Positions 4,656-54,806 of a stretch of DNA of 64,000 bases are shown here, piece by piece. Under the pieces are notes generated by a model that was not told the origin of the DNA, did no database searches, and saw nothing but the letters and a program-made list of their open reading frames with translations. Numbering within the stretch: the stretch's first letter is position 1; every line of letters begins with the position of its first letter. The stretch comes from Thermodesulfovibrionales bacterium (GTDB lineage Bacteria > Nitrospirota > Thermodesulfovibrionia > Thermodesulfovibrionales > UBA1546). Location: the NCBI GenBank assembly GCA_049302185.1, contig JBAQLV010000010.1, positions 38,742 to 102,741 on the forward strand, read 5' to 3'. Made by a program: the position numbers and the translations under genes.

Positions 4656-4783
4656 GGGGATTGGTCCGCAATCCCTCTTCACGCTGTCATGCTGGCTTGT
4701 CCAGCATCCTTCCTGCTTGTCAGGAATCTCAGAATGATTCCGAACAAGTCGGAATGACAAACCCGACAAGCGGGAATGACAGT
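4656..4783. repeat. Mosaic of short hairpin units (family A: GTCATTCC..GGAATGAC, GATGCTGGACAAGCCAGCATGACA)
   Basis: Intergenic. The same modules recur at 43447-43551, 46347-46419, 54731-54806 (inverted order) and 58541-58631. Confidence 0.85.
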
Positions 4784-21864: not shown

Positions 21865-24276
21865 TTATTCTTTAGTCTGGGATGACTGTTTTATTCTTTC
21901 CCTCACTATGTATGCCTGCCCCAGCGATATGCCAGCATCATTTGCAGGAACCTTTTCATTAGTATAAACATTCATTCCTATTGATTTTAGCCTGTCTATA
22001 GTATTTTTTAGAAGATACATGTTCTGAAAAACTCCGCCACTTAAAACTACATCATGCAGCTTATGAACCATGCCGAGCCGCTGGACGACTCCGGCAATAA
22101 TTGTGACTATGGTGTTGTGAAACTTAGTGGCGATAATATCTTTTCCAATGCCTTTCGCCATATCCTGTATCAGCCTGAACAGAGTCAGGCAAAAGTCTAT
22201 TTCAATCCTGTCTTTCAATCCGATGTCAGCAGGGTAGTCTTCCTCTATGTTATCTATTGTATAAGATTCAAGCGCCATTGCTGCCTCGCCTTCAAAGGTG
22301 TTTGTGTCGCATATCCCGAGTATTGCCGAGACCGCATCAAAGAGCCTTCCTGCGCTTGATGAAAGGGGTGAGAAATCTCTGTTGTCAATGATTCTGAGAA
22401 TGCTGTTTATCTTATCACTGCCGTATTTTTCAATGAAGCCTATGGACTCCAGATAGTGCATGACCTCATCTCCCGTGATATATCTTATGTAGCTGACCGC
22501 AACTCTCCACGGCTCTCTGATTGCCGTCTCTCCTCCAGGAAGGGGGATGTATTTAAAGTGTCCTGCCCTCTTAAAGTCATCTATATCGGCAATCAGGAAT
22601 TCACTTCCCCATAGATTCCCGTCAGTTCCGTAGCCTGTGCCGTCAAATGCCACGCCTATGACTTTTCTCTTTATTCCGTTTTCTGCCATGACAGATGCAA
22701 TATGGGCATAATGATGCTGAATGCCATAAAAAGATAGTGACGAGTGACGAGTTTTTTGCTCCTGACTGCTAACTGCTGACTGCTGGGCCAGCGCCCATTT
22801 TGTTGAAAGATAATTGGGATGCAGGTCATATCCAATTGCAACAGGGTTCACCCTGTAAACTTTTTTTAGATTGCTGAGGCTTTCTTCAAAGAATTTTACA
22901 GTCTCGTAATTTTCCATATCTCCTATGTGATGGCTTGGAATAGCATAGCTTCCTTTTGTGAGGGTAAATGTGTTTTTTATATCAGCTCCGCAGCCGAGCA
23001 CTTCGGGACCATCATTGTCCAGAGATATGGGTTCAGGCGCATAGCCCCTTGAACGGCGGATAAAAATAGGTTTTGTCCTGTGAGCTAAAAAATGATTTCT
23101 TATAACAGAATCATCTACACGCATGAAGATGTCCCTGTTATGGATAAGGAGGGCATCAACCATATCGGAGAATTTTGATACTGCCTCGTCATTGCTGACA
23201 ACTATCGGCTCTTCCGAGATGTTGCCGCTGGTCATTACAAGGGATTTGAAATGGGGCATACCATTTACCCCCCCTTCGCCCCCCCTTACCAAGGGGGGGA
23301 TGGGGGGGTGGGGATAATAGAATAACAGATAATGCAGAGGCGTGTATGGGAGCATGAAGCCGATGTGCAGATTATTAGGGCTGATCGAATCAGGCAAGAG
23401 CGCTGAATTGTCTTGCGCAGTTTTTTTCCTGAGGAGCACAATCGGTCTCTTATTGGAGGTCAGGAGTTCTTGCTCTTTCTCCGATACCTCGCAGTATTTT
23501 TTAATTGTTTCTATGTCAGGAGCCATAAGCGCAAAAGGCTTGTTGTTCTTTCTTTTCCTTTCTCTTAATCTTTCAACCGCATCTTTGTTTGCGGCATCGC
23601 ATGCGATATGAAAACCGCCAAGCCCCTTTATTGCAATGATACAGCCGTCTCGTAGAAGTCTTATTGTTTCTTTTATCGGATTTTCTGCCTTATTAACTTT
23701 TAACTTTTCACTTTTAATTTTTAATTCAACATGCGGTCCGCATACCGCACATGCATTAGGCTGGGCATGGAATCTCCTGTCGGAAGTGTTGTTGTATTCG
23801 CTTTCGCATTCATTGCACATTTTAAAAACAGACATGGTGGTGTTGTGTCTATCATAAGGCACAGCATTTGTGATGGTGTATCGCGGCCCGCAGTTGATAC
23901 AGTTTATGAAAGGGTAGAGATAACGCCTGTTGTCTTTGTCAAGCATCTCTTTAAGGCAGTCATCGCATATTGAGACGTCAGAAGATATAAGCGTAAAACT
24001 TCCGCTGTCTCTGCTTTTTACTATCTCAAAATCTTTGTGCCCGTAAAGAGGCATAGGCGAAATATCAATCTTGTTTATCTCTGATAATGGAGGCGCTTCT
24101 TTTGGAAGCCTGCCTATAAATGACGTGATGTCTTCGCCTTCTATGTCAATTGCCACGCCGTCAGAGGTATTGGTCACTGTGCCTTTCAGGTTAAGGGATT
24201 TGGCAAGGTTATAGACAAAGGGCCTGAAGCCGACTCCCTGCACAACGCCTTTGATATTGATGAGGACACGGTTCAT
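21865..24276 (-). CDS. hypF: Carbamoyltransferase HypF
   Basis: 803 aa with an acylphosphatase-like N-domain, four CxxC zinc-finger motifs and YrdC-like and Kae1-like domains. It carries two repeat-derived in-frame insertions. Confidence 0.95.
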   Translation of the reverse strand: MNRVLINIKGVVQGVGFRPFVYNLAKSLNLKGTVTNTSDGVAIDIEGEDITSFIGRLPKEAPPLSEINKIDISPMPLYGHKDFEIVKSRDSGSFTLISSDVSICDDCLKEMLDKDNRRYLYPFINCINCGPRYTITNAVPYDRHNTTMSVFKMCNECESEYNNTSDRRFHAQPNACAVCGPHVELKIKSEKLKVNKAENPIKETIRLLRDGCIIAIKGLGGFHIACDAANKDAVERLRERKRKNNKPFALMAPDIETIKKYCEVSEKEQELLTSNKRPIVLLRKKTAQDNSALLPDSISPNNLHIGFMLPYTPLHYLLFYYPHPPIPPLVRGGEGGVNGMPHFKSLVMTSGNISEEPIVVSNDEAVSKFSDMVDALLIHNRDIFMRVDDSVIRNHFLAHRTKPIFIRRSRGYAPEPISLDNDGPEVLGCGADIKNTFTLTKGSYAIPSHHIGDMENYETVKFFEESLSNLKKVYRVNPVAIGYDLHPNYLSTKWALAQQSAVSSQEQKTRHSSLSFYGIQHHYAHIASVMAENGIKRKVIGVAFDGTGYGTDGNLWGSEFLIADIDDFKRAGHFKYIPLPGGETAIREPWRVAVSYIRYITGDEVMHYLESIGFIEKYGSDKINSILRIIDNRDFSPLSSSAGRLFDAVSAILGICDTNTFEGEAAMALESYTIDNIEEDYPADIGLKDRIEIDFCLTLFRLIQDMAKGIGKDIIATKFHNTIVTIIAGVVQRLGMVHKLHDVVLSGGVFQNMYLLKNTIDRLKSIGMNVYTNEKVPANDAGISLGQAYIVRERIKQSSQTKE
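22736..22786. repeat. Heptamer arrays inside hypF (AGTGACG x2; CTRACTG x3)
   Basis: Read directly. They encode the AVSSQEQKTRHSSLS stretch, which looks like an insertion relative to HypF as I know it. Confidence 0.8.
23268..23313. repeat. GC-rich palindromic mini-element, in frame in hypF
   Basis: cccccccttcgccccccttaccaagggggggatgggggggtgggg. It is the near-exact reverse complement of 45716-45759 and encodes PHPPIPPLVRGGEGG. Confidence 0.9.
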
Positions 24277-28772: not shown

Positions 28773-29918
28773 TCATAACATCGTATACCGATTTTTAATG
28801 GTGAATCCTCTTAATGCAGGTTTGCGGCTGCCTTTGTACTGTATTATGACCTTGTGCGTTTCTCCCATTGTACCCGGAAGAATTAATTTTTTGATTCTGG
28901 CAACTTCAAACGGATAATCAGCAGAATTTTTATGGATTTCAGCGATAACCTCATCAATACCGAGGGAAACGAGAAATACGCCCTGACGGCAGAAGCCTAT
29001 AGTTTTTATGCCGAGTTCATAACCCCATTTTTTTACTGATGAGAAATTGACATGCGCTGTGATATCCTGCTCTCCTGTATTTTGGTAAGGGTCTTCTGTT
29101 ACTTGATGCTCATGATAGCAAAGGAGTGTCCCTCTGTTTCTGTCTTCACTGTAATAGTCTTCGGAAGAATAGCCGTAGTCAATAGTTAATAAAAATCCCT
29201 CTGTTAAAGCGCGGTTTATTTCAGAAAGCCATTTTTTGATTTCAAGATTTATCTCTGTCCTATGTCCTTTCTCAAGTTCTATGGAAAACTCGTTGATGTA
29301 ATCTATTATCACGCTTGTGCTTGGCGCTCCTTTGATTTCTGTTAATTTCTCATTTTCTGCGGAAACGAATATTTCCTTGATTTCATCCTTCATCTCTATA
29401 ATATGTACAGGGAAGGCATCAAGAAGCTCGTTTGAGAGAATGCAGCCTCTTATAGCGCTGAGTTCTTTAATGGATGAGACCCATCGAACTTTGTCCGAGA
29501 ACTCAGACAAAAGATTTTTCTGGTTCTCTCTCATTAAGGGATTAAGTTCAACGATTATGTATTGCAGGTTTTTTATTATTTCTCTTTCTAACCCCTGACC
29601 CCCAATCCCTAAACCCTTGTAGTATTCAAGAATATCTTTACAGAGATAACCTACGCCTGAGCCCATTTCAACGATTTGAAAATCAGAAGGCCTGCCCATT
29701 ATCTCCCACATCTCTTCTATCTGTTTTCCAATCATCATTCCGAATGCAGGATGGAGATGAGAGCTTGTGTAGAAATCGCCGCTTCTTCCAATCCTTGTTT
29801 TTTGAGAGGTGTAATAGCCGAGTTCAGGTTCGTAGAGAGCCATCTCCATGAAGGCTCTGAATGTGATATGTCCTTCTTTTTTTATCTTGCCTATGATTTT
29901 TTGCTGAAGAGGATTCAT
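28773..29918 (-). CDS. SAM-dependent methyltransferase, MidA/NDUFAF7-like
   Basis: 381 aa with YYTS...GDFYTS and EMGSGVGYL motifs. It contains a heptamer-derived insert. Confidence 0.8.
   Translation of the reverse strand: MNPLQQKIIGKIKKEGHITFRAFMEMALYEPELGYYTSQKTRIGRSGDFYTSSHLHPAFGMMIGKQIEEMWEIMGRPSDFQIVEMGSGVGYLCKDILEYYKGLGIGGQGLEREIIKNLQYIIVELNPLMRENQKNLLSEFSDKVRWVSSIKELSAIRGCILSNELLDAFPVHIIEMKDEIKEIFVSAENEKLTEIKGAPSTSVIIDYINEFSIELEKGHRTEINLEIKKWLSEINRALTEGFLLTIDYGYSSEDYYSEDRNRGTLLCYHEHQVTEDPYQNTGEQDITAHVNFSSVKKWGYELGIKTIGFCRQGVFLVSLGIDEVIAEIHKNSADYPFEVARIKKLILPGTMGETHKVIIQYKGSRKPALRGFTIKNRYTML
29589..29616. repeat. Heptamer array TAACCCC TGACCCC CAATCCC TAAACCC inside the MidA-like gene
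   Basis: Read directly. It encodes GLGIGGQGL on the coding strand. Confidence 0.8.
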
Positions 29919-40983: not shown

Positions 40984-41739
40984 ATGTTCCGAGATATAAA
41001 AGATTCAGAAATATTTACAAGATTGGCGGATTTTTTTGGGAAAAAGTCTGAAGTTTTGCTTGTTTTTCTCTTTGGATCCGCAGCAAGCAGGAAAATGACA
41101 GAATATCTCACAAAGGTAATGGGCTATCCAGAGGAGAATGTTGTAACACTTTTGAATGAACATGCGACAAATGTAGATTTTGCAAAATACTTTGAGAAGT
41201 GGCTTCCTAACAACGTTGAAAAAGATAGAAACCTTTACAAAGTTAAACTTAAAGCTCTTGTTGAACCTGTTTATCCTGAAAAAAGCGAAACTATCTCACT
41301 TAAAGTCTCCCTCTCAAAGACTGTTTTAAAGGAAGGCGATGAGGTTAAGGTTTTTTTTCAGACAAACAGGGACTCTTATGTGTATATCTTTTCGGTAGCA
41401 GCAGACGGCTCTGTGACACTCCTGTTGCCCAACTCCATAAATAAGGACAATCTTATTCTTGCTGGGAGAGCATACACTTTCCCTACTCCTGAAAGCCGGA
41501 TAAGGTTGACGGCAATGTTCCTTCCTGAGTTTAAAGGGAAGATTGCAGAAGAAAAGATAAAGATTATAACCACAAAGAAAAAAGAGGATTTAGTGCCTCT
41601 CGGTTTTCAGGAAGGGATGTTCAAGGTCTATGATGCAAAGTCCACAGGCATGATAAGCGACCTAATCAAAAGACTCAATCAGCTTGAGCCTGCTGACTGG
41701 GCAGAGGCAACGACAGTTTATAGGATTGAGAGAAGATGA
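40984..41739 (+). CDS. DUF4384-like domain protein with a degenerate mosaic N-terminus
   Basis: The C-terminal YVYIFSVAADGSVTLLLPNS...AGRAYTFP resembles DUF4384. The N-terminus carries a nucleotidyltransferase-like LVFLFGSAASR and a caspase-like segment without catalytic His/Cys. Confidence 0.5.
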   Translation: MFRDIKDSEIFTRLADFFGKKSEVLLVFLFGSAASRKMTEYLTKVMGYPEENVVTLLNEHATNVDFAKYFEKWLPNNVEKDRNLYKVKLKALVEPVYPEKSETISLKVSLSKTVLKEGDEVKVFFQTNRDSYVYIFSVAADGSVTLLLPNSINKDNLILAGRAYTFPTPESRIRLTAMFLPEFKGKIAEEKIKIITTKKKEDLVPLGFQEGMFKVYDAKSTGMISDLIKRLNQLEPADWAEATTVYRIERR

Positions 41740-43343
41740 AAGTTGTTACAGCGGAAGAGATGAGAGAGATTGACAGGATGACCATAAGGGATTATGAAAT
41801 AGCCGGTAGTGTGCTCATGGAGAGGGCAGGGCTTGCCGTTGCAGGAAAAATAAGGGAACTTTTTGAGCGGCGGAGAAAGGTTATAGTTCTTTCGGGTGGA
41901 GGCAATAATGGCGGAGACGGCATTGTTGTTGTAAGAAATCTTCATGAATGGGGCTGGAATGTAAAAATCATTCTTCTTTCAAAGGAAAACAAGCTAAGCC
42001 CGGACTGTCTGTTGCAATATAAGATAGCGAAAAAATCAGGCGTGCCGGTTGAGTTTCGGGATTATATCACAGAAAAAGACCTTCATAGCGCTTTGGTTGT
42101 AGATGCAATTTTCGGCACCGGTTTAAGCAAAAATATCACAGGAAAGACGGCCGAGATTATATCGTTTATCAATGCCTCGGATGCTCCTGTAATTTCTGTT
42201 GACATTCCCTCAGGCATTTCATCAGATACAGGGCAGATTATGGGAGAGGCGGTCAGGGCGGATTATACCATAGCGTTCGGTATTCCCAAGAGAGGTCATC
42301 TGCTTTACCCGGGCGCTGATTATACCGGAAGGCTTTTTATTGAAGATATCGGCTTTCCTGAAGAACTGCTTCACTCGGAAAAGCTTAAAGCAGAGCTTCT
42401 TGAAAAAAGAGACATATTTTTATTGATTCCCGAAAGGCAGAGGTATTCGCATAAAGGCGATTATGGCCATGTGCTTGTTATTGCAGGCTCAAGAGGGAAA
42501 ACAGGCGCTGCATTCATGTGTGCAAAGGCATGTCTAAGGTCAGGCGCAGGGCTTGTGACAATAGGAGTTCCGGAATCACTGCTGGATGTTTTTCAGTCAA
42601 GGGTTACAGAAGAGATGACCCTGCCTTTGCCTGACAAAGGAGACGGGACGCTTTCATCAAAGGCATTGGAAAAGATTCTGGAATTTCTTTCTGAAAAGGC
42701 TGATGTGCTTGCAATTGGTCCGGGAATTTCCGTTACCGATGATACTAAGAAGCTTGTCAGAGAACTTTTACTGAATTCAACAGCGTCGGCTGTTATTGAT
42801 GCTGATGCTATAAATTCGCTTCAGGGCAATAAGCAGATACTCAAAAAAGCGAGGTCGCCGCTGATTCTTACGCCTCATCCAGGAGAGATGGCGAGACTCT
42901 TACAGAAGTCACCCCCCCCACCCATCCCTCCCCCTCGAGGGGGGAGGGTGAGGGAGGGGGTGAAAGCTCTAACTTCTGAACTCCAAACCAAAATAGAGCA
43001 GGACAGGATTAATACTGCCATGTTTTTTGCAAAAGAGACAGGGACATATCTTGTTCTTAAAGGCGTGCCGACAGTTATTGCTGAACCGGAAGGCAGAGTG
43101 TTCATCAATCCGACAGGCAATTCCGGTATGGCGAGCGCCGGAACAGGGGATGTCCTGACAGGAATGGTTTCAGGGTTTTTAGGGCAGGGGTTAAACCCGC
43201 TTGAGGCGTCAATTCTTGGAGTTTATATGCATGGACTTGCCGGAGACATAGCTGCGAAAAGCAAGGGAGAACATTCGCTGATTGCATCCGATATTACAGA
43301 TGCGATTCCGGAGGCGTTTCATCTATTGAGGATTATTTCATAA
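41736..43343 (+). CDS. nnr: Bifunctional NAD(P)H-hydrate repair enzyme (epimerase/dehydratase)
   Basis: 535 aa with a YjeF_N domain (GGGNNGGDG) and a carbohydrate-kinase-like C domain (GTGDVLTG). It carries an in-frame GC-palindrome insertion. Confidence 0.92.
   Translation: MKVVTAEEMREIDRMTIRDYEIAGSVLMERAGLAVAGKIRELFERRRKVIVLSGGGNNGGDGIVVVRNLHEWGWNVKIILLSKENKLSPDCLLQYKIAKKSGVPVEFRDYITEKDLHSALVVDAIFGTGLSKNITGKTAEIISFINASDAPVISVDIPSGISSDTGQIMGEAVRADYTIAFGIPKRGHLLYPGADYTGRLFIEDIGFPEELLHSEKLKAELLEKRDIFLLIPERQRYSHKGDYGHVLVIAGSRGKTGAAFMCAKACLRSGAGLVTIGVPESLLDVFQSRVTEEMTLPLPDKGDGTLSSKALEKILEFLSEKADVLAIGPGISVTDDTKKLVRELLLNSTASAVIDADAINSLQGNKQILKKARSPLILTPHPGEMARLLQKSPPPPIPPPRGGRVREGVKALTSELQTKIEQDRINTAMFFAKETGTYLVLKGVPTVIAEPEGRVFINPTGNSGMASAGTGDVLTGMVSGFLGQGLNPLEASILGVYMHGLAGDIAAKSKGEHSLIASDITDAIPEAFHLLRIIS
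42910..42962. repeat. GC-rich palindromic mini-element, in frame in nnr
   Basis: cacccccccacccatccctccccctcgaggggggagggtgagggagggggtg, centred on CTCGAG. It encodes SPPPPIPPPRGGRVREG. Confidence 0.9.
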
Positions 43344-43353
43344 GCTATGTTTA

Positions 43354-43551
43354 AGCAGACAGGACATAGCATCTTCGCTTTCGCCTCAGGCGAATTCGCC
43401 GAGGAGGACAAAAATTTATTTACTAAGACGGCTACAAGTAAGGATACATTCTTGTCATTCTCCTCCTCCGGCTTGACCGGGGGATTGACCGGAGAATCCA
43501 GAAAGGCGCTGGATGCCCGATTAAGAACTTCGGGCATGACGTCAAAAATAA
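43354..43551. repeat. Composite of a family B terminus and hairpin plus family A hairpin units
   Basis: 43354-43377 matches the reverse complement of 19618-19641 at 23/24. 43373-43412 matches 13185-13222. 43447-43551 starts like 46347. Confidence 0.8.
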
Positions 43552-43596
43552 GTTGCATGTGTCCTTACTAATGACCGCATTAGTATTTAGAAATTA

Positions 43597-44274
43597 ATGG
43601 AAACGCTTATATTCCCTGAAATATTCGGAAGACATGTAACAGCCTTTTTTACAGGCAAATCTCCGGGCGCTGACCCTGAAGGAATATCCGGAGCTGTGTC
43701 CGTTGATAAGCAAAAGATTTATCTGCCGATACAGAAGCATACAGACAAGGTGCTTGTGCTGGATTCAGATTTGAGTCCCAGAATTGCAGATGCTGTTATA
43801 ACTAACAATAAGGGCATTCTTCTTGGTGTTCAGGTTGCAGACTGTGTGCCTGTGCTTCTGTATGATGTGAAGAGAAATGTAATTGGGGTTGTTCATGCGG
43901 GGTGGCGGGGAACAGCAGCTTCAATACTTAAAAAGACAATAGAAACAATGCGTGAGAGGTTTGGTTCTTTTCCTGATGATATTAAGATAGCCATAGGCCC
44001 GAGTATAAGATGGTGTTGTTACCACGTAGGGTATAATGTTCTTGAGTCTGTTGAAAAGGCAACAGGCAATGGCGAATATCACATCAACAGAGGCGAGGCA
44101 TATTGTCTTGATATCGCATCAGCTAACAAATATCAGGCGGTATCTGCGGGGATTCACGAAAAGAATATATGGGTATCTGAAGAGTGTACATACTGTCATC
44201 CTGACAAATACTATTCATACAGGTTTGCAAAGGGGACTACCGGAAGACAGGGAGGGTTTATAGGGATTCTTTAA
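43597..44274 (+). CDS. pgeF: Peptidoglycan editing factor PgeF (YfiH/laccase-domain family)
   Basis: 225 aa with VADCVPV, HAGWRG and a C..H motif. Confidence 0.88.
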   Translation: METLIFPEIFGRHVTAFFTGKSPGADPEGISGAVSVDKQKIYLPIQKHTDKVLVLDSDLSPRIADAVITNNKGILLGVQVADCVPVLLYDVKRNVIGVVHAGWRGTAASILKKTIETMRERFGSFPDDIKIAIGPSIRWCCYHVGYNVLESVEKATGNGEYHINRGEAYCLDIASANKYQAVSAGIHEKNIWVSEECTYCHPDKYYSYRFAKGTTGRQGGFIGIL

Positions 44275-44291
44275 ATTAATAAAAAAATAAT

Positions 44292-44735
44292 ATGGCTATA
44301 AAGTTTTTAAGCAGAAATACGGAAGAGACGCAGATGATAGGTTTCAGGCTCGGGAATTTGCTGAGGCCTCATAATGTCGTTTGTCTCTATGGTGAACTCG
44401 GCGCAGGCAAGACAACATTTGTTAAAGGCATTGCGCAGGCGCTGGGTATTTCAGACAGGGATATTACAAGCGCAAGTTTTACTATAATTGCGGAATATGA
44501 CAGCGAAATCCCGCTCTACCATATAGACCTTTACAGGATTGAAAAAAACGCTGATATTGATGAAACAGGGATATGGGATTATATTTACAGTGACGGCATC
44601 ACCGTTATTGAATGGGCTGAACGCCTCGGAGAAATTCAGGATGATTTTATAAGGGTAAAATTTGCTATTATAGATAAAGAAGTAAGGGACATTACGATTG
44701 AGGGAATAGATGAAAAAGATTGGAATCGTATCTAA
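44292..44735 (+). CDS. tsaE: tRNA t6A37 biosynthesis ATPase TsaE
   Basis: 147 aa with GELGAGKTTF and HIDLYR. Confidence 0.88.
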   Translation: MAIKFLSRNTEETQMIGFRLGNLLRPHNVVCLYGELGAGKTTFVKGIAQALGISDRDITSASFTIIAEYDSEIPLYHIDLYRIEKNADIDETGIWDYIYSDGITVIEWAERLGEIQDDFIRVKFAIIDKEVRDITIEGIDEKDWNRI

Positions 44736-45561
44736 AGCTGGAAGATCTGAGCCTATAGAGATACTGAAAGATTTTCTTCCGTGGCTGAATAATAAAGGGC
44801 TTGAGGTTTTTCTGGATTCGGAAACAGCCGCTTTACTTAAGGTGAAGGGCTATCCACGCTCTGAGATGCCTTCCCTTGTTGATATGATAATCGTTCTTGG
44901 CGGCGACGGGACAATGCTCAATGTTGCACGGCTTGTCTGTGAAAGAGGCGTTCCTATTCTCGGAGTGAATCTCGGAGGGCTTGGTTTCATCACAGAGGTT
45001 CGTAAAGAAGAACTCTCTGATGCAATGAGCAAGACGCTCTCAGGCGAATATTCAATTGAAGACAGGATGATGCTTACCGCGCACATACACAGGCATGGGG
45101 AAAAAATTGCTGAATATACTGTGCTGAATGATGTGGTTATAAATAAAGGCGCCCTTGCAAGGATTATTGACCTTGAAACATATATTAACAAGACCTATGT
45201 AACCCTCTTTAAGGCGGATGGGCTTATCGTATCAACTCCGACAGGTTCAACAGCATACTCATTGTCAGCAGGCGGCCCTGTGCTTTATCCGACGCTTGAC
45301 TGTATTATCCTTACGCCTATATGCCCGCATACACTGACAAACAGGCCTACTGTGCTTCCGGATGACGCGCTTATAGAAATAATACTTAAGTCTGTCAGCG
45401 AGGATGTGTTCCTCACGCTTGACGGTCAGGTCGGATTTTCTCTCAGGAAGGATGACGTTGTGGAGGTCAAGAGGTCGCCGTTTAAGACAAGGCTTATCAT
45501 CCCGTTTGAGAGGGATTATTTCCAGATATTAAGGACAAAGCTTAAATGGGGAGAGCGTTAA
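44710..45561 (+). CDS. nadK: NAD kinase
   Basis: 283 aa with GGDGT, the NLGGLGFIT motif and TPTGSTAYSLSAGGP. Confidence 0.93.
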   Translation: MKKIGIVSKAGRSEPIEILKDFLPWLNNKGLEVFLDSETAALLKVKGYPRSEMPSLVDMIIVLGGDGTMLNVARLVCERGVPILGVNLGGLGFITEVRKEELSDAMSKTLSGEYSIEDRMMLTAHIHRHGEKIAEYTVLNDVVINKGALARIIDLETYINKTYVTLFKADGLIVSTPTGSTAYSLSAGGPVLYPTLDCIILTPICPHTLTNRPTVLPDDALIEIILKSVSEDVFLTLDGQVGFSLRKDDVVEVKRSPFKTRLIIPFERDYFQILRTKLKWGER

Positions 45562-45565
45562 AAAC

Positions 45566-45600
45566 AGTTATGAGTTTAGAGTTAAGAGTTAGAAATTAAA
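45566..45600. repeat. Heptamer array AGTTATG AGTTTAG AGTTAAG AGTTAGA AATTAAA
   Basis: Five units make up essentially the whole nadK-UDG intergenic spacer. Confidence 0.85.
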
Positions 45601-46323
45601 ATGACAAATATTGCAGAAGACATAAAGACAGTGCTTGAGTTTTATCAGGCGATGGGGATTGAGAGAATACCCTTAAACATAGCGCTGAAGAGCAGAAGCG
45701 CAGAAGTGCAGAAGCCACCCCCCCATCCCCCCCTTGGTAAGGGGGGGCGAAGGGGGGGTGATTATTCGGAAAAGGTTATTGCTTTAAAAAAATTGCGCGA
45801 TGAGATTGGTGATTGTCAGAGGTGCAAACTCTCAAAGGGGAGAAAGAACATTGTATTCGGGGAAGGCAGCATAGATGCGGAAATAATGTTCATTGGCGAA
45901 GGGCCCGGCGAAGACGAGGACATTCAGGGGCGGCCTTTTGTGGGCAAGGCAGGACAGCTGCTTACAAAACTGATAGAGAAGATGGGATTTAAGAGGGAGG
46001 ATGTCTATATCGGCAATATCGTGAAGTGCCGGCCTCCCGGTAACAGGGACCCTGAGGAAGACGAGATTAACGCCTGTTCTCCGTTCATAAAAAAACAGGC
46101 GGCGATAATCTCTCCGAAGGTTATAGTTTCGCTTGGCCGCATATCTACGCAGACGCTCATCGGCATGAAGATTCCGATAGGCAAGCTGAGGGGCAAATTC
46201 TATCAGTTTGAAGATATTCCGCTGATGCCGACATTTCATCCGTCTTATCTCCTGAGAAACCCCAAAGACAAATGGCTTGTATGGGAAGATGCGCAAAAGG
46301 TTCTTGAAAGGCTGGGAAAGTAG
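45601..46323 (+). CDS. Uracil-DNA glycosylase, family 4
   Basis: 240 aa with CQRC..., GEGPGEDED and HPSYLLRN. It carries an in-frame GC palindrome in the N-terminal extension. Confidence 0.9.
   Translation: MTNIAEDIKTVLEFYQAMGIERIPLNIALKSRSAEVQKPPPHPPLGKGGRRGGDYSEKVIALKKLRDEIGDCQRCKLSKGRKNIVFGEGSIDAEIMFIGEGPGEDEDIQGRPFVGKAGQLLTKLIEKMGFKREDVYIGNIVKCRPPGNRDPEEDEINACSPFIKKQAAIISPKVIVSLGRISTQTLIGMKIPIGKLRGKFYQFEDIPLMPTFHPSYLLRNPKDKWLVWEDAQKVLERLGK
45716..45759. repeat. GC-rich palindromic mini-element, in frame in the UDG gene
   Basis: cacccccccatcccccccttggtaagggggggcgaagggggggtg. It encodes PPPHPPLGKGGRRGG. Confidence 0.9.
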
Positions 46324-46346
46324 TTTGAACGGTTTTTAGATGAACA

Positions 46347-46419
46347 CATTCTTGTCATTCCTGCGCAAGCAGGAATCCAGCAGTTTGAAAACTGGATTCC
46401 CGTTTTCACGAGAATGACA
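46347..46419. repeat. Family A hairpin units (GTCATTCCTGCGCAAGCAGGAATC; CCAGCAGTTTGAAAACTGGATTC)
   Basis: Intergenic between UDG and ubiX. It has the same ACATTCTTGTCATTC start as 43445. Confidence 0.8.
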
Positions 46420-46433
46420 GATAAGGACTTAAG

Positions 46434-47066
46434 ATGAAGAAATATGTTTTTGCCATAAGCGGTGCAAGCGGTTCCATAATCGGGATAAGAGTTCTAAGAG
46501 AATTACTCAAGACTTCTCATGTTCATCTCATAATATCATCACAGTCATTCTCCATTATAAAAGATGAGACAGGCATTGATTGGGCAATTAAAAAAAGTTC
46601 AAAGTTTAAAGTTCAAAATTCAAAGTTAAGAGAAGATAAAATCAGGAAGTATTTTAAAACAGACAGGCTTTTCTTTTATGAGAACACACAGATGGATGCG
46701 CCTGTCGCAAGCGGTTCATTTAAAACAGACGGGATGCTCATTGTGCCATGTTCCATGAAGACGCTTTCAGGCATTGCGAATGGTTATGCAAATAACCTCA
46801 TAGAGCGGGCTGCTGATGTGACGATAAAAGAGGGAAGGACACTGCTTCTTTCGCCGAGGGAGATGCCGTTCAGCGCAATACATCTTGAGAACATGCTCAA
46901 ACTTGCAAGAATCGGGGTGAAGATTGCGCCTCCTGTTTTAGCCTTCTACCACAAGCCTAAAAAGATTGACGATATGATTAATTTCACAGCAGGCAAAATC
47001 CTTGACGCTGTCGGAGTGGAACATGAGATTTATAAGAGATGGGGAACTGATAGCGGTAAGAAATGA
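46434..47066 (+). CDS. ubiX: UbiX-family flavin prenyltransferase
   Basis: 210 aa with [20 protein letters not shown] and REMP. It contains a heptamer-derived insert. Confidence 0.9.
46596..46630. repeat. Heptamer array AGTTCAA AGTTTAA AGTTCAA AATTCAA AGTTAAG inside ubiX
   Basis: It encodes [12 protein letters not shown] within a loop that is about 15 residues longer than in E. coli UbiX as I recall it. Confidence 0.85.
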
Positions 47067-49270
47067 CGATTAAAGAACATATCAAGCTGATTATTAAGGC
47101 TGAGCACTGGGACCCCTTTCAAGCGCTTGGGATGCATGAAGTAAGAACGGAAGGCAAAAAGGCAGTAACAGTTCGCGCATTCATGCCTGATGCTGATAAG
47201 GCGTGGGTTGTTGATGCCGGCAAAAACAAATCCTATGAAATGGAAAAAACGAGCAAGGCAGGTTTTTTTGAGAAGGACTTTGAAAAAAGGAAAGATTTTT
47301 TCCAATATAAACTCAAGATAAAAACATCCGATAACCGCATTGCTGAATTTTTTGACCCTTATTCATTCCTGCCTGTGCTTTCGGATTTTGACCTTCATCT
47401 TATAGGCGAGGGAAGCCACTACAAGAAATACGAAAAACTCGGAGCCCACGTTATTGAGGTTAATGGGATTAAAGGCATTCATTTTGCAGTATGGGCGCCG
47501 AATGCGAAAAGGGTCAGCGTTGTGGGTGATTTCAACAACTGGGACGGAAGAAGGCATCAGATGCGCGTCCTTGGCTCATCAGGCGTGTGGGAGATATTTG
47601 TGCCGGGGCTTGATGAAGGAGAGGTTTATAAGTTTGAGATAAAGTCAAAGTCCGGTGAAATATTTCTGAAGGCAGACCCATATGCATTTTATTTTGAGGT
47701 CAGGCCAAAAAGCGCATCTGTTGTATATGACATAAACAGATACCGATGGAATGACAGCGAATGGCTTGAAATGCGTTCAGAAAAAAACTGGTTTGAATCT
47801 CCTGTCTCTGTTTATGAGGTTCACCTTGGCTCATGGATGCGTGTGCCAGAGGAAGAAAACCGTTTTCTCACTTACAGAGAGCTTGCTGATAAACTGATCG
47901 GCTATGTAAAGGATATGGGATATACACATATTGAACTCATGCCTGTAACAGAGCATCCGCTGGACGCTTCGTGGGGTTATCAAACAGTGGGGTATTTTGC
48001 TCCGACAAGCAGACACGGCGCGCCTGAAGACTTTATGTATTTTGTGGATAAATGCCACCAGAACAAGATAGGCGTTATCCTTGACTGGGTTCCAGCGCAT
48101 TTTCCAAAAGATGCGCATGGGCTTGGATATTTTGACGGCACAGCGCTCTATGAACATGCAGACCCGAGGAAAAGCGAGCACAAAGACTGGGGCACGCTGA
48201 TATTTAACTACGGAAGAAATGAGGTAAGGAATTTTCTGATATCAAGCGCGCTTTTCTGGCTCGAAAAATATCACATAGACGGTTTGCGTGTTGATGCTGT
48301 CGCCTCAATGATTTACCTTGATTATTCAAAAAAAGAAGGTGAATGGGTTCCAAATATATTCGGAGGAAGGGAAAACCTTGAGGCGATAGATTTCCTGAAA
48401 AGATTTAACGAAGTTGTTCACCGGCAGCATCCCGGCATTCTCACGATTGCAGAGGAATCAACTGCGTGGACAGGCGTATCAAGACCTACGTATCTCGGCG
48501 GGCTTGGCTTCAGCCTTAAGTGGAATATGGGATGGATGCATGACATTCTTGAGTATTTTTCAAAAGACCCTGTTTACAGGGAACATCACCACAGCAATCT
48601 TACGTTCAGCCTTCTTTATGCCTTTACGGAGAACTTTATGCTCGTCCTTTCTCACGATGAGGTTGTGCACGGGAAGAGTTCAATGCTCGGCAAGATGCCC
48701 GGAGATATGTGGCAGAAGTTTGCAAACCTTAGACTGCTGTATGGTTTCATGTACGGACATCCGGGGAAGAAACTGCTTTTTATGGGAAGTGAGTTCGGGC
48801 AGTGGGATGAGTGGGACTTTGACCACAGCCTTGACTGGCACCTTCTTCAGTATGAGCCTCATCAAAAACTTCAGCATTATATAAGAGACCTAAACAGGCT
48901 TTACAGAACAAAGCCGCCGCTACATGAGGTTGATTTCAGTTATTCAGGCTTTGAGTGGATAGATTTTCACGATACAGAGCAGAGCGTAATATCATTTATA
49001 AGAAAGGGGAAAAGGGCTGACGATTTCCTTGTGTTTGTGTGCAACTTTACTCCTTTGCCGAGATATAATTACAGGATAGGCGTGCCTGAATCGGGTTTAT
49101 ATAAAGAGATTTTAAACAGTGATTCTGCCGAATACTGGGGAAGCGGAATTGGAAATACAGAGGGTATTTTATCAGAAAATATTTCATGGAATGGAAGGCC
49201 TTATTCTATAAGCATCACATTGCCGCCGCTGGCAGTTGTCGTATTCAAGCCTGACAGGCTAAAGAACTGA
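47063..49270 (+). CDS. glgB: 1,4-alpha-glucan branching enzyme
   Basis: 735 aa with GH13 motifs [17 protein letters not shown] and EESTAW. Confidence 0.95.
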
Positions 49271-49437
49271 TGATATTTTAAGAATGTTAACCTGAAAATA
49301 TTGTGCGATTCCACTGCTTTGTGTGATATGATTTTATTATGAAAGAGCACATTTATGAGGTTGCTGTTTAAATGAATGAACGTCAGCCGAGAAGCTTGAA
49401 CCTGTTTTTATGATATACTTAAACTTCATAAGAAGGG

Positions 49438-49740
49438 TTGAAAGGGCAACATATTTTGGAGATTGATGATTTAATAATAACCGCTGAAATACTTGATAAA
49501 CTCATATGGAAACATAATGTCACCGAGACAGAGGTCAGGCAGGTTTTTCTTGACGCACCCAGATACAGGTTTATTGAAAAAGGCAGATATAAAGGCGAAC
49601 ATCTATATCTTGCTCTCGGTGTTTCTGATTCAGGGAGGTATCTATCAGTGTTTTTTATTTATAAAAAAGACAAGAATGCCTTAATTGTAACAGCAAGAGA
49701 TATGACTGAGAAAGAAAGGAGGAGGTATGCAAAAAAGTAA
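49438..49740 (+). CDS. Putative type II toxin (BrnT/DUF497-like)
   Basis: 100 aa with KHNVTETEVRQVF...GRYLSVFF...ALIVTARDMTEKERRRY. TTG start, and it overlaps the antitoxin gene by 14 nt. Confidence 0.55.
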   Translation: MKGQHILEIDDLIITAEILDKLIWKHNVTETEVRQVFLDAPRYRFIEKGRYKGEHLYLALGVSDSGRYLSVFFIYKKDKNALIVTARDMTEKERRRYAKK

Positions 49741-49999
49741 GAAAAGTGTAGAACCTATTCCTGATGAGTTCACAACACTTGTGGAAGCATCTGATTTCTG
49801 GGATACCCATGATATTTCTGACTACTGGAATAAGACAAAAGAGGTAAAGTTTCAGGTAAGACTGAAAAAAGAACCAAAATATGTTGCTATTGAAGAGAAA
49901 CTTGCAAAAAAAGTTTTTAATATAGCAAAGAAAAAACATATTTCAACAGAGACGCTTATTAACCTATGGCTCAAAGAAAAACTACCTGCTGTGAAATAA
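49727..49999 (+). CDS. CopG/BrnA-type antitoxin
   Basis: 90 aa with the EASDFWDTHDISDYW motif and a C-terminal RHH-like segment. Confidence 0.7.
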   Translation: MQKSKKSVEPIPDEFTTLVEASDFWDTHDISDYWNKTKEVKFQVRLKKEPKYVAIEEKLAKKVFNIAKKKHISTETLINLWLKEKLPAVK

Positions 50000-50004
50000 G
50001 GATT

Positions 50005-50033
50005 GTTCACAGTTCACGGTTCACAGTTCACGG
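50005..50033. repeat. Heptamer array GTTCACR x4
   Basis: gttcaca gttcacg gttcaca gttcacg, between the antitoxin stop and the four-helix-bundle start. Confidence 0.9.
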
Positions 50034-50071
50034 ATTGGGGACAGGGTTTTTTGCTGTCAACAGGAGGTAGC

Positions 50072-51906: not shown

Positions 51907-51928
51907 GAAAGGATATTTAAATGAGCCG

Positions 51929-53077
51929 ATAGGCATTATCCTTCTTAATCTCGGCGGGCCTGATTCTATTCAGGCTGTAAAGCCGTTTCTTTACAATTTA
52001 TTTTCAGACAGAAAGATAATTCAACTTGGCCCTCCATTCCTTCAAAAACCGATTGCACGGCTAATCTCAACACTGAGGTCTAAAAAAACAGAAAGTTGTT
52101 ACCGCCTCATAGGAGGCAGGTCTCCGATACTTGATATTACCAATGCACAGGCAAAGGCGCTGGAAGAAACGCTAAATCAGTTCAGCGTTCAGGGTTCAGC
52201 GTCAGAAAACTCCGAACTCCTAACTCCTAACTCCGAGAAATCCCCCCATCCCCCCTTTGTTAAAGGGGGGCGAGGGGGGATTAAAGTTTTCGTAGGAATG
52301 CGTTACTGGCATCCTTTGATAGAAGACGTGATACCTCAGATTTATAATGATGGAATTAGAAAACTTATCGCCATCAGCCTTTATCCCCAGTATTCTCTGG
52401 CAACATCAGGCTCAGCGCTTGTTAAATTTAAAGAAGCTGTAATAAATACTTATCAGCCGGATAAAACAGAGGTTGAAAAAATGAATAGTTCTTTTGAGTA
52501 TCATGGCAAGCCTTCTTTTACTGTTCACTATTCACTATTCACTATTCACTGTATTTTATCATGGTATGACCATCCGCTTTATATTAAGGCATTGGTGGAT
52601 GTGATAAAGAAGGGGATTGAATCTTTTAACTCCAAACTCCAAACTCCAAACTCTGAACTTAATATCCACGTTCTCTTCAGCGCCCACAGCCTTCCTGAAA
52701 AGTTTATTGATGAGGGTGACCCTTATGTGCGTCATATTGAGAGAACGATTGAAGAGATTGTAAAGCGGATACCAATAAAATGGCATCTGAGTTATCAATC
52801 CAAGAGCGGGCCTGTAAAATGGCTTGGGCCTTCAACAGACGAAAAACTTAAAGAACTTGCAGGCAGGAATGTTAAGAATATTCTCATTGTCCCGATAAGT
52901 TTTGTATCTGACCATATTGAGACGCTTTATGAGATTGATATATTATATATGCAGATGGCAAAAGACCTCGGAATTAATCTGAGACGAACAGATTCCCTGA
53001 ACACACATCCGCTTTTTATTGAAGCGCTGAAAGATATAGTAATAAAAAACATGAAGGAGCTTGGTTGGACAGAATAG
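51929..53077 (+). CDS. hemH: Ferrochelatase (start codon unresolved)
   Basis: The conserved N-terminus GIILLNLGGPDS...FLYNLFSD...IGGRSP is in frame from at least 51932. There is no ATG/GTG/TTG in frame after the stop at 51866-51868. The track start at 52298 would delete about 120 conserved residues. SAHSLPE and DHIETLYE motifs are present. Confidence 0.85.
   Translation: MGIILLNLGGPDSIQAVKPFLYNLFSDRKIIQLGPPFLQKPIARLISTLRSKKTESCYRLIGGRSPILDITNAQAKALEETLNQFSVQGSASENSELLTPNSEKSPHPPFVKGGRGGIKVFVGMRYWHPLIEDVIPQIYNDGIRKLIAISLYPQYSLATSGSALVKFKEAVINTYQPDKTEVEKMNSSFEYHGKPSFTVHYSLFTIHCILSWYDHPLYIKALVDVIKKGIESFNSKLQTPNSELNIHVLFSAHSLPEKFIDEGDPYVRHIERTIEEIVKRIPIKWHLSYQSKSGPVKWLGPSTDEKLKELAGRNVKNILIVPISFVSDHIETLYEIDILYMQMAKDLGINLRRTDSLNTHPLFIEALKDIVIKNMKELGWTE
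52178..52282. repeat. Composite in-frame insertion in hemH: GTTCAG-type heptamers, inverted AACTCCN heptamers, then a GC-rich palindrome (52241-52281)
   Basis: Read directly. It encodes SVQGSASENSELLTPNSEKSPHPPFVKGGRGG just upstream of the conserved VGMRYWHP. Confidence 0.9.
52521..52555. repeat. Heptamer array CTGTTCA CTATTCA x3 CTGTATT inside hemH
   Basis: It encodes FTVHYSLFTIHCI. The same CTATTCA unit appears at 38686-38699. Confidence 0.9.
52628..52660. repeat. Heptamer array AACTCCA x3 AACTCTG AACTT inside hemH
   Basis: It encodes NSKLQTPNSEL just before the conserved LFSAHSLPE. Confidence 0.9.
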
Positions 53078-54688: not shown

Positions 54689-54730
54689 ACCTGAATTGAG
54701 CGATTCTATACTCTGTAATTCTGTCTTGTC

Positions 54731-54806
54731 TGTCATTCCGACTTGTTCGGAATCCTTCCTGCTTGTCAGGAATCGTCAGAAAGATGCTGGACAAGCCAGC
54801 ATGACA
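54731..54806. repeat. Family A hairpin mosaic, inverted relative to 4684-4765
   Basis: tgtcattccgacttgttcggaatc + cttcctgcttgtcaggaatc + gatgctggacaagccagcatgaca, the same three modules as the 4.7-kb copy. Confidence 0.85.

What the first reader, a model, noticed from the sequence alone, without database searches (positions are those of the whole stretch)
23268..23313. GC-rich palindromic mini-element inserted in frame in hypF: one of four intragenic copies
A ~45-bp element made of C-runs followed by G-runs sits inside HypF, between the conserved LPYTPLHYLL and LVMTSGN segments. It adds PHPPIPPLVRGGEGG without breaking the frame.

Near-identical or related copies lie inside three other conserved enzymes in this window: nnr (42910-42962), UDG (45716-45759) and hemH (52241-52281). 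I found no intergenic copy here.

Because the element is a palindrome, either insertion orientation reads Pro-rich then Gly-rich, which avoids stop codons. This is the behaviour described for Rickettsia palindromic elements (selfish DNA tolerated inside protein-coding genes). I am not aware of it being described for this kind of element or host.
Basis: partly seen in the sequence, partly recalled or inferred. Interest (0 to 1): 0.75.

Follow-up and report, generated by a model that had tools for sequence, protein, structure and literature searches.

The report
GC-hairpin mini-repeat inserted inside genes
A roughly 40-45-base GC-rich hairpin repeat sits in frame inside hypF and three other housekeeping genes of a Nitrospirota bacterium, and it belongs to an apparently undescribed repeat family, found in at least nine phyla, that comes and goes in protein loops, adding a short proline/glycine peptide.

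Summary
Four C-run/G-run bulged hairpins lie in frame in hypF, nnr, a family-4 UDG and hemH of a Thermodesulfovibrionales MAG. The hypF and UDG copies are identical over 45 nt. The hemH copy is a second architecture, and the nnr copy is degenerate.

In all four hosts the segment is an insertion relative to solved homologs. The sites turn over among close relatives. The window's HypF nests in a clade that carries heptamer repeats at this loop, so the hairpin is a recent gain. Across 117 orthologs the hairpin state needs at least 21 changes at that one site.

The family occurs in at least nine phyla. In Microcoleus isolates, GlyS alleles hold 0, 1, 2 or 3 copies. Across 48 copies, 79% are intragenic against 76% for random positions, so there is no gene avoidance and no preference, and intergenic copies exist. 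Filled alleles differ from empty ones by +27, +33 and +36 nt. There are no target-site duplications and no GTAG/CGTC REP tags. In this lineage the hairpins often sit just 3' of 7-8-nt tandem arrays.

Best reading: a selfish or neutral mini-repeat tolerated because it encodes a Pro/Gly loop in most frames. The behaviour is RPE-like, but it is not an RPE. The mobilisation mechanism is unknown.

The parts
23267..23311 (-). Type II C/G-run hairpin element in hypF (core 23268-23308). Coding strand reads CCA-C7-AT-C7-TTGGTAA-G7-CGAA-G7-T and encodes HPPIPPLVRGGEGG.
   Evidence: RNA fold -38 kcal/mol. Falls in a 19-residue gap versus PDB 3vth and 4g9i. Absent from the closest relatives.
45715..45759 (+). 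Type II element in the N-terminal linker of a family-4 UDG. It is 45/45 identical to the hypF copy in the same orientation relative to the coding strand, and encodes PPPHPPLGKGGRRGG.
   Evidence: The identical copy is present in relative L124, absent in L125, and replaced by a different hairpin in L128.
52238..52282 (+). Type I element in hemH: AAAT-C6-AT-C6-TTTGTTAAA-G6-CGA-G6-ATT, encoding SPHPPFVKGGRGG.
   Evidence: Absent from the hemH of L124, L125 and L128, which carry GATTCAC-type heptamers at this site.
42910..42962 (+). Degenerate copy in nnr: C8-A-C3-AT-C3-T-C5-TCGA-G6-A-G3-TGA-G3-A-G5, encoding PPPPIPPPRGGRVREG.
   Evidence: -45 kcal/mol. L124 has a canonical type I copy at the same site. 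L125 and L128 have none.
21865..24276 (-). hypF host gene (803 aa, all HypF domains intact).
   Evidence: (E = 9e-204 to 3vth).
41736..43343 (+). nnr host gene (bifunctional NAD(P)H-hydrate repair enzyme, 535 aa).
45601..46323 (+). Family-4 uracil-DNA glycosylase host gene (240 aa).
51908..53077 (+). hemH (ferrochelatase) host reading frame. It is open from 51908, with no canonical start codon before 52298.
45681..45715 (+). 8-nt tandem array (AGCGCAGA x4.4) immediately 5' of the UDG hairpin.
52180..52236 (+). Two heptamer arrays (GTTCAGC x3.3 and AACTCCG x4.1) immediately 5' of the hemH hairpin, in frame.
22736..22785 (-). Heptamer arrays (AGTGACG and CTGACTG on the + strand) that form a second repeat-derived insert in HypF (AVSSQEQKTRHSSL).

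Best explanation
The hypF segment is one copy of a dispersed family of 38-46-nt GC-rich bulged-hairpin repeats. Two architectures recur:
- Type I: aAAT-C6-bulge-C6-TTTnnnAAA-G6-bulge-G6-ATTt.
- Type II: A-C7-bulge-C7-TTnnnAA-G7-bulge-G7-T.

Copies are gained and lost at the DNA level. They persist inside genes because C-runs read as proline and G-runs as glycine in every frame. Most frames and both orientations therefore give a stop-free PPxPP(L/F)x(K/R)GGxGG peptide that a flexible protein loop can accommodate.

In hypF the copy is a recent gain in this lineage. It sits in a hypervariable connection between a helix (TPLHYLLF) and a strand (LVMTSGN), at a site that held AACTCCN heptamer repeats in the nearest relatives. 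It most likely has no host function there and is selfish or neutral DNA filtered by selection: only permissive loops and length changes that are multiples of three survive.

Shown here: the repeat family, identical copies at unrelated loci, insertion relative to homologs, presence/absence and copy-number polymorphism, no gene avoidance, strong hairpin potential, no target-site duplication, and association with 7-8-nt tandem arrays in this lineage.

Inferred: that the insert is translated, that it is neutral, and how it spreads. My best guess for spread is copying of a single-stranded hairpin by an enzyme acting in trans, or template switching or gene conversion during replication, with short replacement of target bases. 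I give about 0.25 to an HUH/RAYT-like enzyme specifically.
For: - Four copies against 0 expected by chance. The hypF and UDG copies are 45/45 identical in unrelated genes.
- The segment falls in gaps versus solved homologs.
- The HypF loop is hypervariable across 120 orthologs. The window sequence nests among heptamer-type relatives, and at least 21 state changes are needed.
- nnr, UDG and hemH differ among relatives at 80-91% identity.
- Filled versus empty alleles differ by multiples of three: YfiH-like +27 nt and PPOX +36 nt, and Microcoleus GlyS +33 nt. GlyS has 0, 1, 2 or 3 copies among named isolates, including a complete M. vaginatus chromosome.
- 66 structured copies were found in at least nine phyla.
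- Ten of ten sampled host ORFs are bona fide conserved genes.
- 79% are intragenic against 76% for random windows, p = 0.74.
- Conserved AAAT/ATTT or A/T termini, and no target-site duplication.
- Hairpins fold at -34 to -45 kcal/mol as RNA.
- Nested hairpin-in-hairpin in HypF orthologs.
- The HypF model places the insert in a coil with pLDDT below 50.
Against: - No transposase, excision intermediate or target-site duplication was found, so mobility is inferred only from polymorphism.
- No junction is a clean insertion. A few target bases are always replaced, which fits gene conversion or template switching as well as transposition.
- Translation of the insert is not shown. A hairpin of -38 kcal/mol in an mRNA could have effects of its own.
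- The AT-bulge orientation is biased 14:4 relative to the coding strand (copies are not independent). A purely neutral model does not predict this.
- The HypF model is only moderate (pLDDT 71) and other regions are also low, so 'surface loop' rests mainly on the alignment gaps.
- Most carriers are MAGs. The cross-phylum claim is validated in cultured isolates only for Microcoleus.
Confidence: 0.75

Rival explanations
1. The hairpins are host-beneficial RNA or DNA modules. Examples would be ribosome pause sites between folding units, mRNA stability elements, or hypermutable homopolymer tracts that give reversible frameshift switching of the host gene.
For: The mRNA hairpins are very stable. C7 and G7 tracts are classic slippage-prone sequences. 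Inserts lie at domain or secondary-structure boundaries. There is a possible orientation bias of 14:4.
Against: - Any given site is filled in one lineage and empty or differently filled in its nearest relatives, which argues against a conserved site-specific function.
- Hosts are unrelated housekeeping genes.
- Intergenic copies exist.
- None of the three copies in the scanned stretch 42000-53500 (nnr, UDG, hemH) shows terminator-like features; the hypF copy lay outside that scan.
- No curated RNA family matches.
Confidence: 0.1
2. The hairpins are not mobile. They arise locally and repeatedly through a mutational process, such as template switching or inverted duplication at C-runs inside unconstrained, repeat-rich loops. 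Similar sequences then converge because of structure and composition.
For: - Junctions are never clean insertions and show no target-site duplication.
- Sites are pre-occupied by tandem heptamer arrays.
- Microcoleus GlyS shows local tandem multiplication of the inner hairpin.
- Loop sequences flip independently of the bulges.
Against: - A local origin cannot produce 45/45 identity between copies in hypF and UDG 22 kb apart.
- It does not explain the same bulge and loop sequences in different genes and genomes, such as L003 and L077.
- It does not explain the conserved AAAT/ATTT termini across phyla.
Confidence: 0.1
3. The segments are assembly or sequencing artefacts, such as poly-G/poly-C chimeras.
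For: The same search pattern also recovers many plain poly-C/poly-G junctions at contig ends of high-GC isolate assemblies, and these do look artefactual.
Against: - The structured copies are internal, in frame and distinct in sequence.
- The UDG copy is identical in an independent metagenome assembly, L124.
- The hypF-type copy recurs at the same site in a different assembly, L003.
- The GlyS copy is present in a complete Microcoleus vaginatus chromosome and in dozens of isolates.
Confidence: 0.02
4. The segments reflect protein-level convergent selection for Pro/Gly-rich linkers, with no DNA-level repeat involved.
For: The peptides are loop-compatible and lie in linkers.
Against: Selection on protein would not create reverse-complement symmetry in the DNA, identical 45-mers in two genes, intergenic copies, or the use of different reading frames for the same DNA.
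Confidence: 0.02

Closest known systems
Rickettsia palindromic elements (RPE)
   Same: Palindromic repeats found inserted in frame in unrelated metabolic genes. They are presumed compatible with protein fold and regarded as selfish DNA (PMC10969869, PMC3733652).
   Different: RPEs are about 150 bp, and the short RPE-4 and RPE-6 carry a CGTC tag. They are confined to Rickettsia and encode a conserved peptide. The element here is 38-46 nt, built of C and G homopolymer runs, untagged, present in at least nine phyla, and shares no sequence similarity with RPEs.
Intragenic GTAG/CGTC-tagged REPs (Di Nocera et al. 2013, PMC3733652)
   Same: These are 20-40-bp imperfect GC-rich stem-loops, sometimes located inside genes for known proteins (often DNA repair genes), sometimes at the same site in orthologs, with single, dimeric and grouped forms. 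That paper explicitly anticipates further untagged families.
   Different: REPs are defined by a terminal GTAG or CGTC and are predominantly extragenic, downstream of genes. GTAG REPs are linked to RAYT transposases. The element here has AAAT/ATTT or A/T termini and no tag, and it shows no depletion from genes.
Cyanobacterial small dispersed repeats (SDR; Elhai et al. 2008, Genome Res 18:1484). The paper is not held in the library, so features are from my own knowledge and from PMC5861425.
   Same: Very small (under 50 nt) hairpin-forming mobile repeats with no encoded protein and no known mobilisation mechanism. From memory, they are associated with heptameric tandem repeats and show nested insertions.
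   Different: SDRs are 21-27 nt and reported only in Nostocaceae (PMC5861425). The element here is about twice as long, has a C/G-run architecture and spans many phyla. Its cyanobacterial hosts so far are Oscillatoriales (Microcoleus, Microseira).
Mitochondrial GC clusters and repetitive hairpin elements (yeast GC42, PMC4478555; sponge RHE, PMC2800124)
   Same: GC-rich hairpins of about 40 nt spreading in AT-richer genomes, with stems conserved, loops variable, merging and shuffling of units, and an unresolved mobility mechanism.
   Different: These are organellar and mostly intergenic, with a putative AG target-site duplication. Their sequences are unrelated to the element here.

Membership tests
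Rickettsia palindromic elements (RPE) | Length of about 100-150 bp (RPE-1 type), or a short stem-loop ending in CGTC (RPE-4/-6) | tested here: not met
   The core is 38-43 nt and 44-46 nt with termini. None of the four window copies has CGTC or GACG at its ends.
Rickettsia palindromic elements (RPE) | In-frame insertion in genes that encode functional proteins | tested here: met
Rickettsia palindromic elements (RPE) | Host range restricted to Rickettsia/Rickettsiales | tested here: not met
   The host is Thermodesulfovibrionales. The family also occurs in Nitrospinota, Methylomirabilota, Planctomycetota, Cyanobacteria and other phyla.
REP (GTAG- or CGTC-tagged; REPIN/RAYT system) | Imperfect GC-rich palindrome of 20-40 bp | tested here: met
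   Bulged hairpins, -34 to -45 kcal/mol as RNA and about -19 to -22 kcal/mol as DNA.
REP (GTAG- or CGTC-tagged; REPIN/RAYT system) | Conserved terminal tetranucleotide GTAG or CGTC | tested here: not met
   The flank consensus is AAAT...ATTT (type I) or A...T (type II). No tag is present at the four window copies.
REP (GTAG- or CGTC-tagged; REPIN/RAYT system) | Predominantly extragenic location | tested here: not met
   38 of 48 copies are intragenic, the same share as random positions.
REP (GTAG- or CGTC-tagged; REPIN/RAYT system) | Associated RAYT (IS200/IS605-like HUH) transposase gene in the genome | not tested
   Only fragments of 8-64 kb of each genome were available, so no whole-genome search was possible.
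MITE | Terminal inverted repeats plus a target-site duplication, 70-300 bp, derived from an IS | tested here: not met
   The element is under 50 nt. The only flanking direct repeat is the palindromic AT. The filled/empty junctions show no duplication.
Cyanobacterial SDR (Elhai 2008) | Length of 21-27 nt and restriction to Nostocaceae | tested here: not met
   The element is 38-46 nt. Its cyanobacterial hosts are Microcoleus and Microseira, and most hosts are not cyanobacteria. SDR features are taken from PMC5861425.
Cyanobacterial SDR (Elhai 2008) | Association with heptameric tandem repeats (feature recalled from memory) | tested here: met
   6 of 48 copies have a strong 7/8-nt array within 70 nt, against a 1.2% baseline. 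All six arrays are on the 5' coding side, and all are in Nitrospirota relatives of the window.
Intrinsic (rho-independent) terminator | GC-rich stem-loop followed by a T-tract | tested here: not met
   None of the three copies in 42000-53500 is called terminator-like. The stems extend through the A/T termini and leave no free U-tail.

The most novel reading that the evidence does not exclude
This is a pan-bacterial family of 'coding-proof' selfish hairpins. Its C-run/G-run design would be an adaptation for living inside genes, because it yields Pro/Gly loop peptides in any frame and lets length slippage restore the reading frame. It would be spread by a dedicated, still unidentified structure-specific machinery that moves between phyla, possibly through phages, and that targets A/T-rich or tandem-repeat sequences. 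If so, it would be a general and overlooked source of loop insertions in bacterial proteins.
Probability: 0.3. Interest if true: 0.8.

Novelty: new variant of a known kind. Interest (0 to 1): 0.6.

Why it matters
Small palindromic repeats are usually treated as extragenic, with Rickettsia as the noted exception. This family shows no depletion from coding DNA and sits in essential genes such as glyS, uvrA, recJ, mutL, murD, hypF and hemH, across at least nine phyla.

Three things follow if this holds:
- It offers a simple explanation for many lineage-specific Pro/Gly loop inserts seen in protein alignments of MAG-rich phyla.
- Its conserved architecture (AAAT-C6...G6-ATTT) across phyla provides a handle for finding the unknown mobilising enzyme by phylogenetic profiling.
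- Cultured Microcoleus strains with 0, 1, 2 or 3 copies in GlyS are a ready experimental system for testing translation, fitness cost and homopolymer slippage.

It is also a practical warning for annotation and alignment pipelines. These inserts, and the heptamer arrays that accompany them, inflate apparent protein divergence.

Tried and rejected
- **Exact-sequence lookup of the window UDG:** found nothing. The source was identified through HypF homologs instead.
- **Elhai 2008:** the closest cyanobacterial precedent is not held in the library, so SDR features rest on PMC5861425 and on memory.
- **Literature searches:** searches on element descriptions, on the literal sequences and on Nitrospirota or cyanobacterial intragenic palindromes found no description of this family.
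- **Rfam:** only two tRNAs in the window reach the gathering threshold.
- **Terminator hypothesis:** rejected.
- **REP tags and target-site duplications:** searched for and not found.
- **Orientation relative to the coding strand:** all four window copies share one orientation and the AT-bulge marker gives 14:4. The copies are not independent, and bulge-length polarity is 19:13 (p = 0.38), so this is inconclusive. GC skew in the window simply tracks gene strand, so replication and transcription polarity cannot be separated.
- **'Element length is a multiple of three':** rejected. Cores are mostly 38 or 41 nt.
- **'Prefers genes':** rejected. The intragenic share equals random expectation.
- **Artefact hits:** about half of the genome-collection hits were plain poly-C/poly-G junctions, mostly at contig ends of high-GC assemblies, and were discarded as an artefact class.
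- **Relaxed searches of the window:** found no further degenerate or intergenic copies.
- **AlphaFold model of HypF:** only moderate (pLDDT 71) because the alignment was shallow. It supports a disordered connection but not specifically.
Full report
**1. Observation**

At 23268-23313 the window holds C7-TTCG-C7-TTACCAA-G7-AT-G7 on the plus strand. On the minus strand, which is the coding strand of an intact 803-aa hypF (21865-24276), it reads C7-AT-C7-TTGGTAA-G7-CGAA-G7. This translates in frame as PHPPIPPLVRGGEGG, between LPYTPLHYLL and LVMTSGN.

A C5..C5..G5 pattern matches only these four places, against none in 100 dinucleotide-preserving shuffles. Of the 15 C or G runs of six or more bases in the 64 kb, 14 belong to these elements, and relaxed searches find no further copy.

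The hypF and UDG copies are exact 45-nt reverse complements on the plus strand. They therefore have the same orientation relative to their host genes. The hemH copy has a different architecture (C6 runs, TTTGTTAAA loop), and the nnr copy is degenerate. All four fold into very stable bulged hairpins: -34 to -45 kcal/mol as RNA (z-scores -2.4 to -4.1) and about -19 to -22 kcal/mol as DNA.

**2. The segments are insertions relative to characterised homologs**

HypF aligns end to end with two solved HypF structures (3vth, E = 9e-204; 4g9i). Both show a 19-residue gap exactly over the element. A second gap covers a heptamer-derived segment, AVSSQEQKTRHSSL.
- HemH has about 26 extra residues where human ferrochelatase has six.
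- Nnr has about 25 extra residues relative to TM0922.
- In the UDG the element lies in a variable linker of an N-terminal extension, ahead of the family-4 core that begins near residue 60. It is inside the ORF but not inside the conserved fold.

An AlphaFold model of HypF built on 32 orthologs is only moderate (mean pLDDT 71, pTM 0.54). It places residues 325-338 in a coil with pLDDT below 50, between helix 313-320 and strand 346-350. Other regions are also low-confidence, so this agrees with a tolerated loop but is not specific proof.

**3. Host and turnover at the hypF site**

The 100%-identical HypF in the protein collection is labelled as coming from a Thermodesulfovibrionales MAG (Nitrospirota). 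A dense ladder of orthologs exists from 92% down to 61% identity.

In an alignment of 120 orthologs, the stretch between LPYTPLHYLLFYYP and NFDALVMTSGN is hypervariable:
- The closest relatives (85-92% identity) read LTPNSELLTPNF. At DNA level this is an AACTCCN heptamer array with no hairpin.
- Orthologs at 73% identity carry the same type of hairpin in the same frame as the window (L003).
- About 30 more distant orthologs carry same-class hairpins, such as NPPSPPFSKGGMGGF.
- Others carry unrelated repeat-derived peptides.

On a neighbour-joining tree built without the loop, the window sequence nests inside the heptamer-type clade. Hairpin presence or absence needs at least 21 changes over 117 sequences. 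Some loops show one hairpin nested in the loop of another, for example NPPIPPF-[NSPLSKGGYRGV]-KEGHGG. The hypF copy is therefore a recent gain at a site that repeatedly gains and loses small repeats. It is not an ancient conserved feature.

**4. Turnover at the other sites**

Syntenic metagenome contigs from relatives (L124 91%, L125 87%, L128 80% identity for a neighbouring protein) show the following.

| Site | Window | L124 | L125 | L128 |
|---|---|---|---|---|
| nnr | degenerate copy | canonical type I copy at the same site | none | none |
| UDG | type II copy | identical copy | unrelated sequence | a different hairpin |
| hemH | type I copy | GATTCAC-type heptamers | GATTCAC-type heptamers | GATTCAC-type heptamers |

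Conversely, L124 has copies in a YfiH-like gene and in protoporphyrinogen oxidase where the window, L128 and (for the YfiH-like gene) L125 are empty. The net changes are +27 and +36 nt.

None of these junctions shows a target-site duplication, and a few target bases are always replaced.

**5. The family beyond this genome**

About half the hits are plain poly-C/poly-G junctions, mostly at contig ends of high-GC isolate assemblies, and I set these aside as an artefact class. The rest, together with copies in the relatives' loci, give 66 structured elements.

They come from Nitrospirota, Nitrospinota, Methylomirabilota, Planctomycetota (including Brocadiaceae), Cyanobacteria, Ignavibacteriaceae, Thermodesulfobacteriota and other 'delta' lineages, beta- and gammaproteobacterial MAGs, and Chloroflexota. 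Nine IMG/VR viral contigs also carry type I copies, all inside ORFs.

Aligning the flanks defines two architectures:
- Type I: aAAT-C6-bulge-C6-TTTnnnAAA-G6-bulge-G6-ATTt.
- Type II: A-C7-bulge-C7-TTnnnAA-G7-bulge-G7-T.

There is no GTAG or CGTC tag.

Ten of ten sampled host ORFs are bona fide conserved genes: two radical SAM enzymes, CbiG-methylase, RecJ, UvrA, an NB-ARC protein, GlyS, MutL, a P-type ATPase and MurD. In RecJ, NB-ARC, GlyS, the P-type ATPase and MurD the element lies inside a Pfam domain envelope.

**6. Statistics**

These are for the 48 copies in loci with GC at or below 55% and away from locus ends.
- 38 copies (79%) lie inside ORFs of at least 120 aa. The figure for random 40-nt windows in the same loci is 76% (p = 0.74).
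- The family therefore neither avoids genes nor prefers them, and nine copies are intergenic.
- Core length is not a multiple of three; 38 and 41 nt are the commonest lengths.
- The AT-bulge marker is oriented 14:4 relative to the coding strand, but the copies are not independent. Bulge-length polarity is 19:13, which is not significant.
- Six of 48 copies have a strong 7/8-nt tandem array within 70 nt, against a 1.2% baseline. All six arrays are on the 5' side of the coding strand, and all are in the window's Nitrospirota relatives.

The window itself holds about 15 period-7 arrays, many of them inside genes.

**7. Independent confirmation in cultured organisms**

The cyanobacterial host GlyS (L043) has Microcoleus isolates as its closest homologs, including M. 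vaginatus PCC 9802. An alignment of 120 orthologs at 84-100% identity has a single indel block:
- 24 sequences are empty (AHRVLH-PSQVSI).
- Many carry one copy (TPPTPPLGKGGTGG).
- Some carry two or three tandem copies.

At the DNA level, the empty allele has 9 nt (CCGTCGCAA) where the filled allele has 42 nt (A-C7-TACA-C7-TTGGCAA-G7-AC-G8). The filled allele comes from a complete 6.76-Mb M. vaginatus chromosome. The net change is +33 nt, with no target-site duplication. The two-copy allele duplicates the inner hairpin. This rules out MAG mis-binning and assembly artefact as general explanations.

**8. Interpretation**

The evidence fits a dispersed, actively turning-over mini-repeat. It is tolerated in coding DNA because C-runs and G-runs encode Pro and Gly in all frames, and the A/T loop usually avoids stop codons. 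Between 3 and 6 of the six frames are open per intragenic copy: 5 for the hypF type and 4 for the hemH type. Selection then keeps only insertions in permissive loops with a net length that is a multiple of three (+27, +33, +36).

How the element spreads is not shown. Candidates compatible with the absence of a target-site duplication, the conserved short termini, the bulged hairpin and the replacement of a few target bases are:
- a single-strand hairpin-specific enzyme acting in trans;
- template switching or gene conversion.

I could not test for a co-occurring transposase or for replication-strand bias.

Rival readings are less likely given site turnover, intergenic copies and identical copies in unrelated genes. 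These rivals are a beneficial RNA module, a purely local mutational origin, an assembly artefact, and protein-level convergence.

**9. Comparison with what is known**

In-frame fusion of small palindromic repeats into genes is established. It is documented for RPEs (about 150 bp, 44 insertions in R. conorii; PMC10969869). It is also documented for GTAG/CGTC-tagged REPs in several phyla, often in repair genes (PMC3733652), and it has been reviewed (PMC3184786).

The present family works like these but fails their membership tests on size, tag, host range and extragenic bias. It resembles the cyanobacterial SDRs in being very small and, from memory, in its link to heptamer arrays. It is longer than SDRs, however, and is not confined to Nostocaceae (PMC5861425). 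Organellar GC clusters are a further analogue (PMC4478555, PMC2800124).

I found no description of this C/G-run family, either by topic or by literal sequence. The library lacks most subscription journals, so this is absence of evidence only.

**10. Verdict**

I classify it as a new variant of a known kind. Interest is moderate to high, because of the cross-phylum reach, the lack of gene avoidance, and the availability of a culturable test system.

Noticed in passing
window 22736-22785, 23693-23724, 29588-29617, 46594-46627, 50005-50031, 51208-51250, 52180-52236, 52520-52550, 52628-52653, 63130-63204: About 15 arrays of 3-5 tandem heptamers (AACTCCN, TTCACTA, GATACAT, GTTCACA and others) occur in the window. 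Most lie inside ORFs and are read in frame. Orthologous sites in relatives carry different heptamers. This resembles the heptamer tandem repeats of heterocystous cyanobacteria, but here they are inside genes of a Nitrospirota bacterium.
   Followed up: partly
window 51905-51935: hemH has no canonical start codon in the frame of its conserved N-terminus (NEPIGIILLNLGGPD). The only ATG (51921) is one base out of frame and runs into TAG after three codons. Relatives start with ATG or TTG followed by G-N-K-E-P-I-G. This is either a one-base assembly or sequencing error, a real frameshift, or a non-canonical start.
   Followed up: partly
window 52440-52565: hemH carries a further insert of about 28 residues (QPDKTEVEKMNSSFEYHGKPSFTVHYSLFTIH) that includes four TTCACTA heptamers. 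It is absent from L124 and L128 and from human ferrochelatase.
   Followed up: partly
window 4673-4772, 54722-54819, 58539-58644: A different, intergenic repeat family of paired hairpins (TGTCATTCCGACTTGTTCGGAATGACA and TGTCATGCTGGCTTGTCCAGCATGACA types) occurs at three places in both orientations.
   Followed up: no
window 61690-62522: A tandem duplication of about 415 bp at 83-86% identity produces two adjacent small paralogous ORFs (61704-62108 and 62130-62519).
   Followed up: no
HypF orthologs P0033, P0059, P0119: A second hairpin-derived peptide (NSPL(S/T)KGGYRGV) is nested between the PPF and KGG halves of the first. This implies insertion of one element into the loop of another.
   Followed up: partly
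L214:856-978; Microcoleus GlyS alleles P0121-P0240: GlyS alleles hold 0, 1, 2 or 3 tandem hairpin units at one site among strains more than 85% identical. The loop sequence flips (TTGGCAA, TTAGCAA, TTACCAA) between otherwise identical copies.
   Followed up: partly
L008, L009, L012, L014, L016 and about 50 other loci: Long poly-C runs abutting poly-G runs lie within a few dozen bases of contig ends in many isolate assemblies (Streptomyces, Sphingomonas, Kitasatospora, Pseudomonas). These are probably an assembler or sequencing artefact class that contaminates public genomes.
   Followed up: partly
L204-L212 (IMG/VR contigs): Type I elements occur inside ORFs of nine viral contigs. Three of them (L205, L206, L209) appear to carry the copy at the same place in a related gene.
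   Followed up: partly
window UDG site versus L125: The window's 57 nt (the 45-nt element plus 12 nt) and L125's unrelated 57 nt occupy exactly the same length between conserved anchors. This could be coincidence or a patch-like replacement.
   Followed up: no
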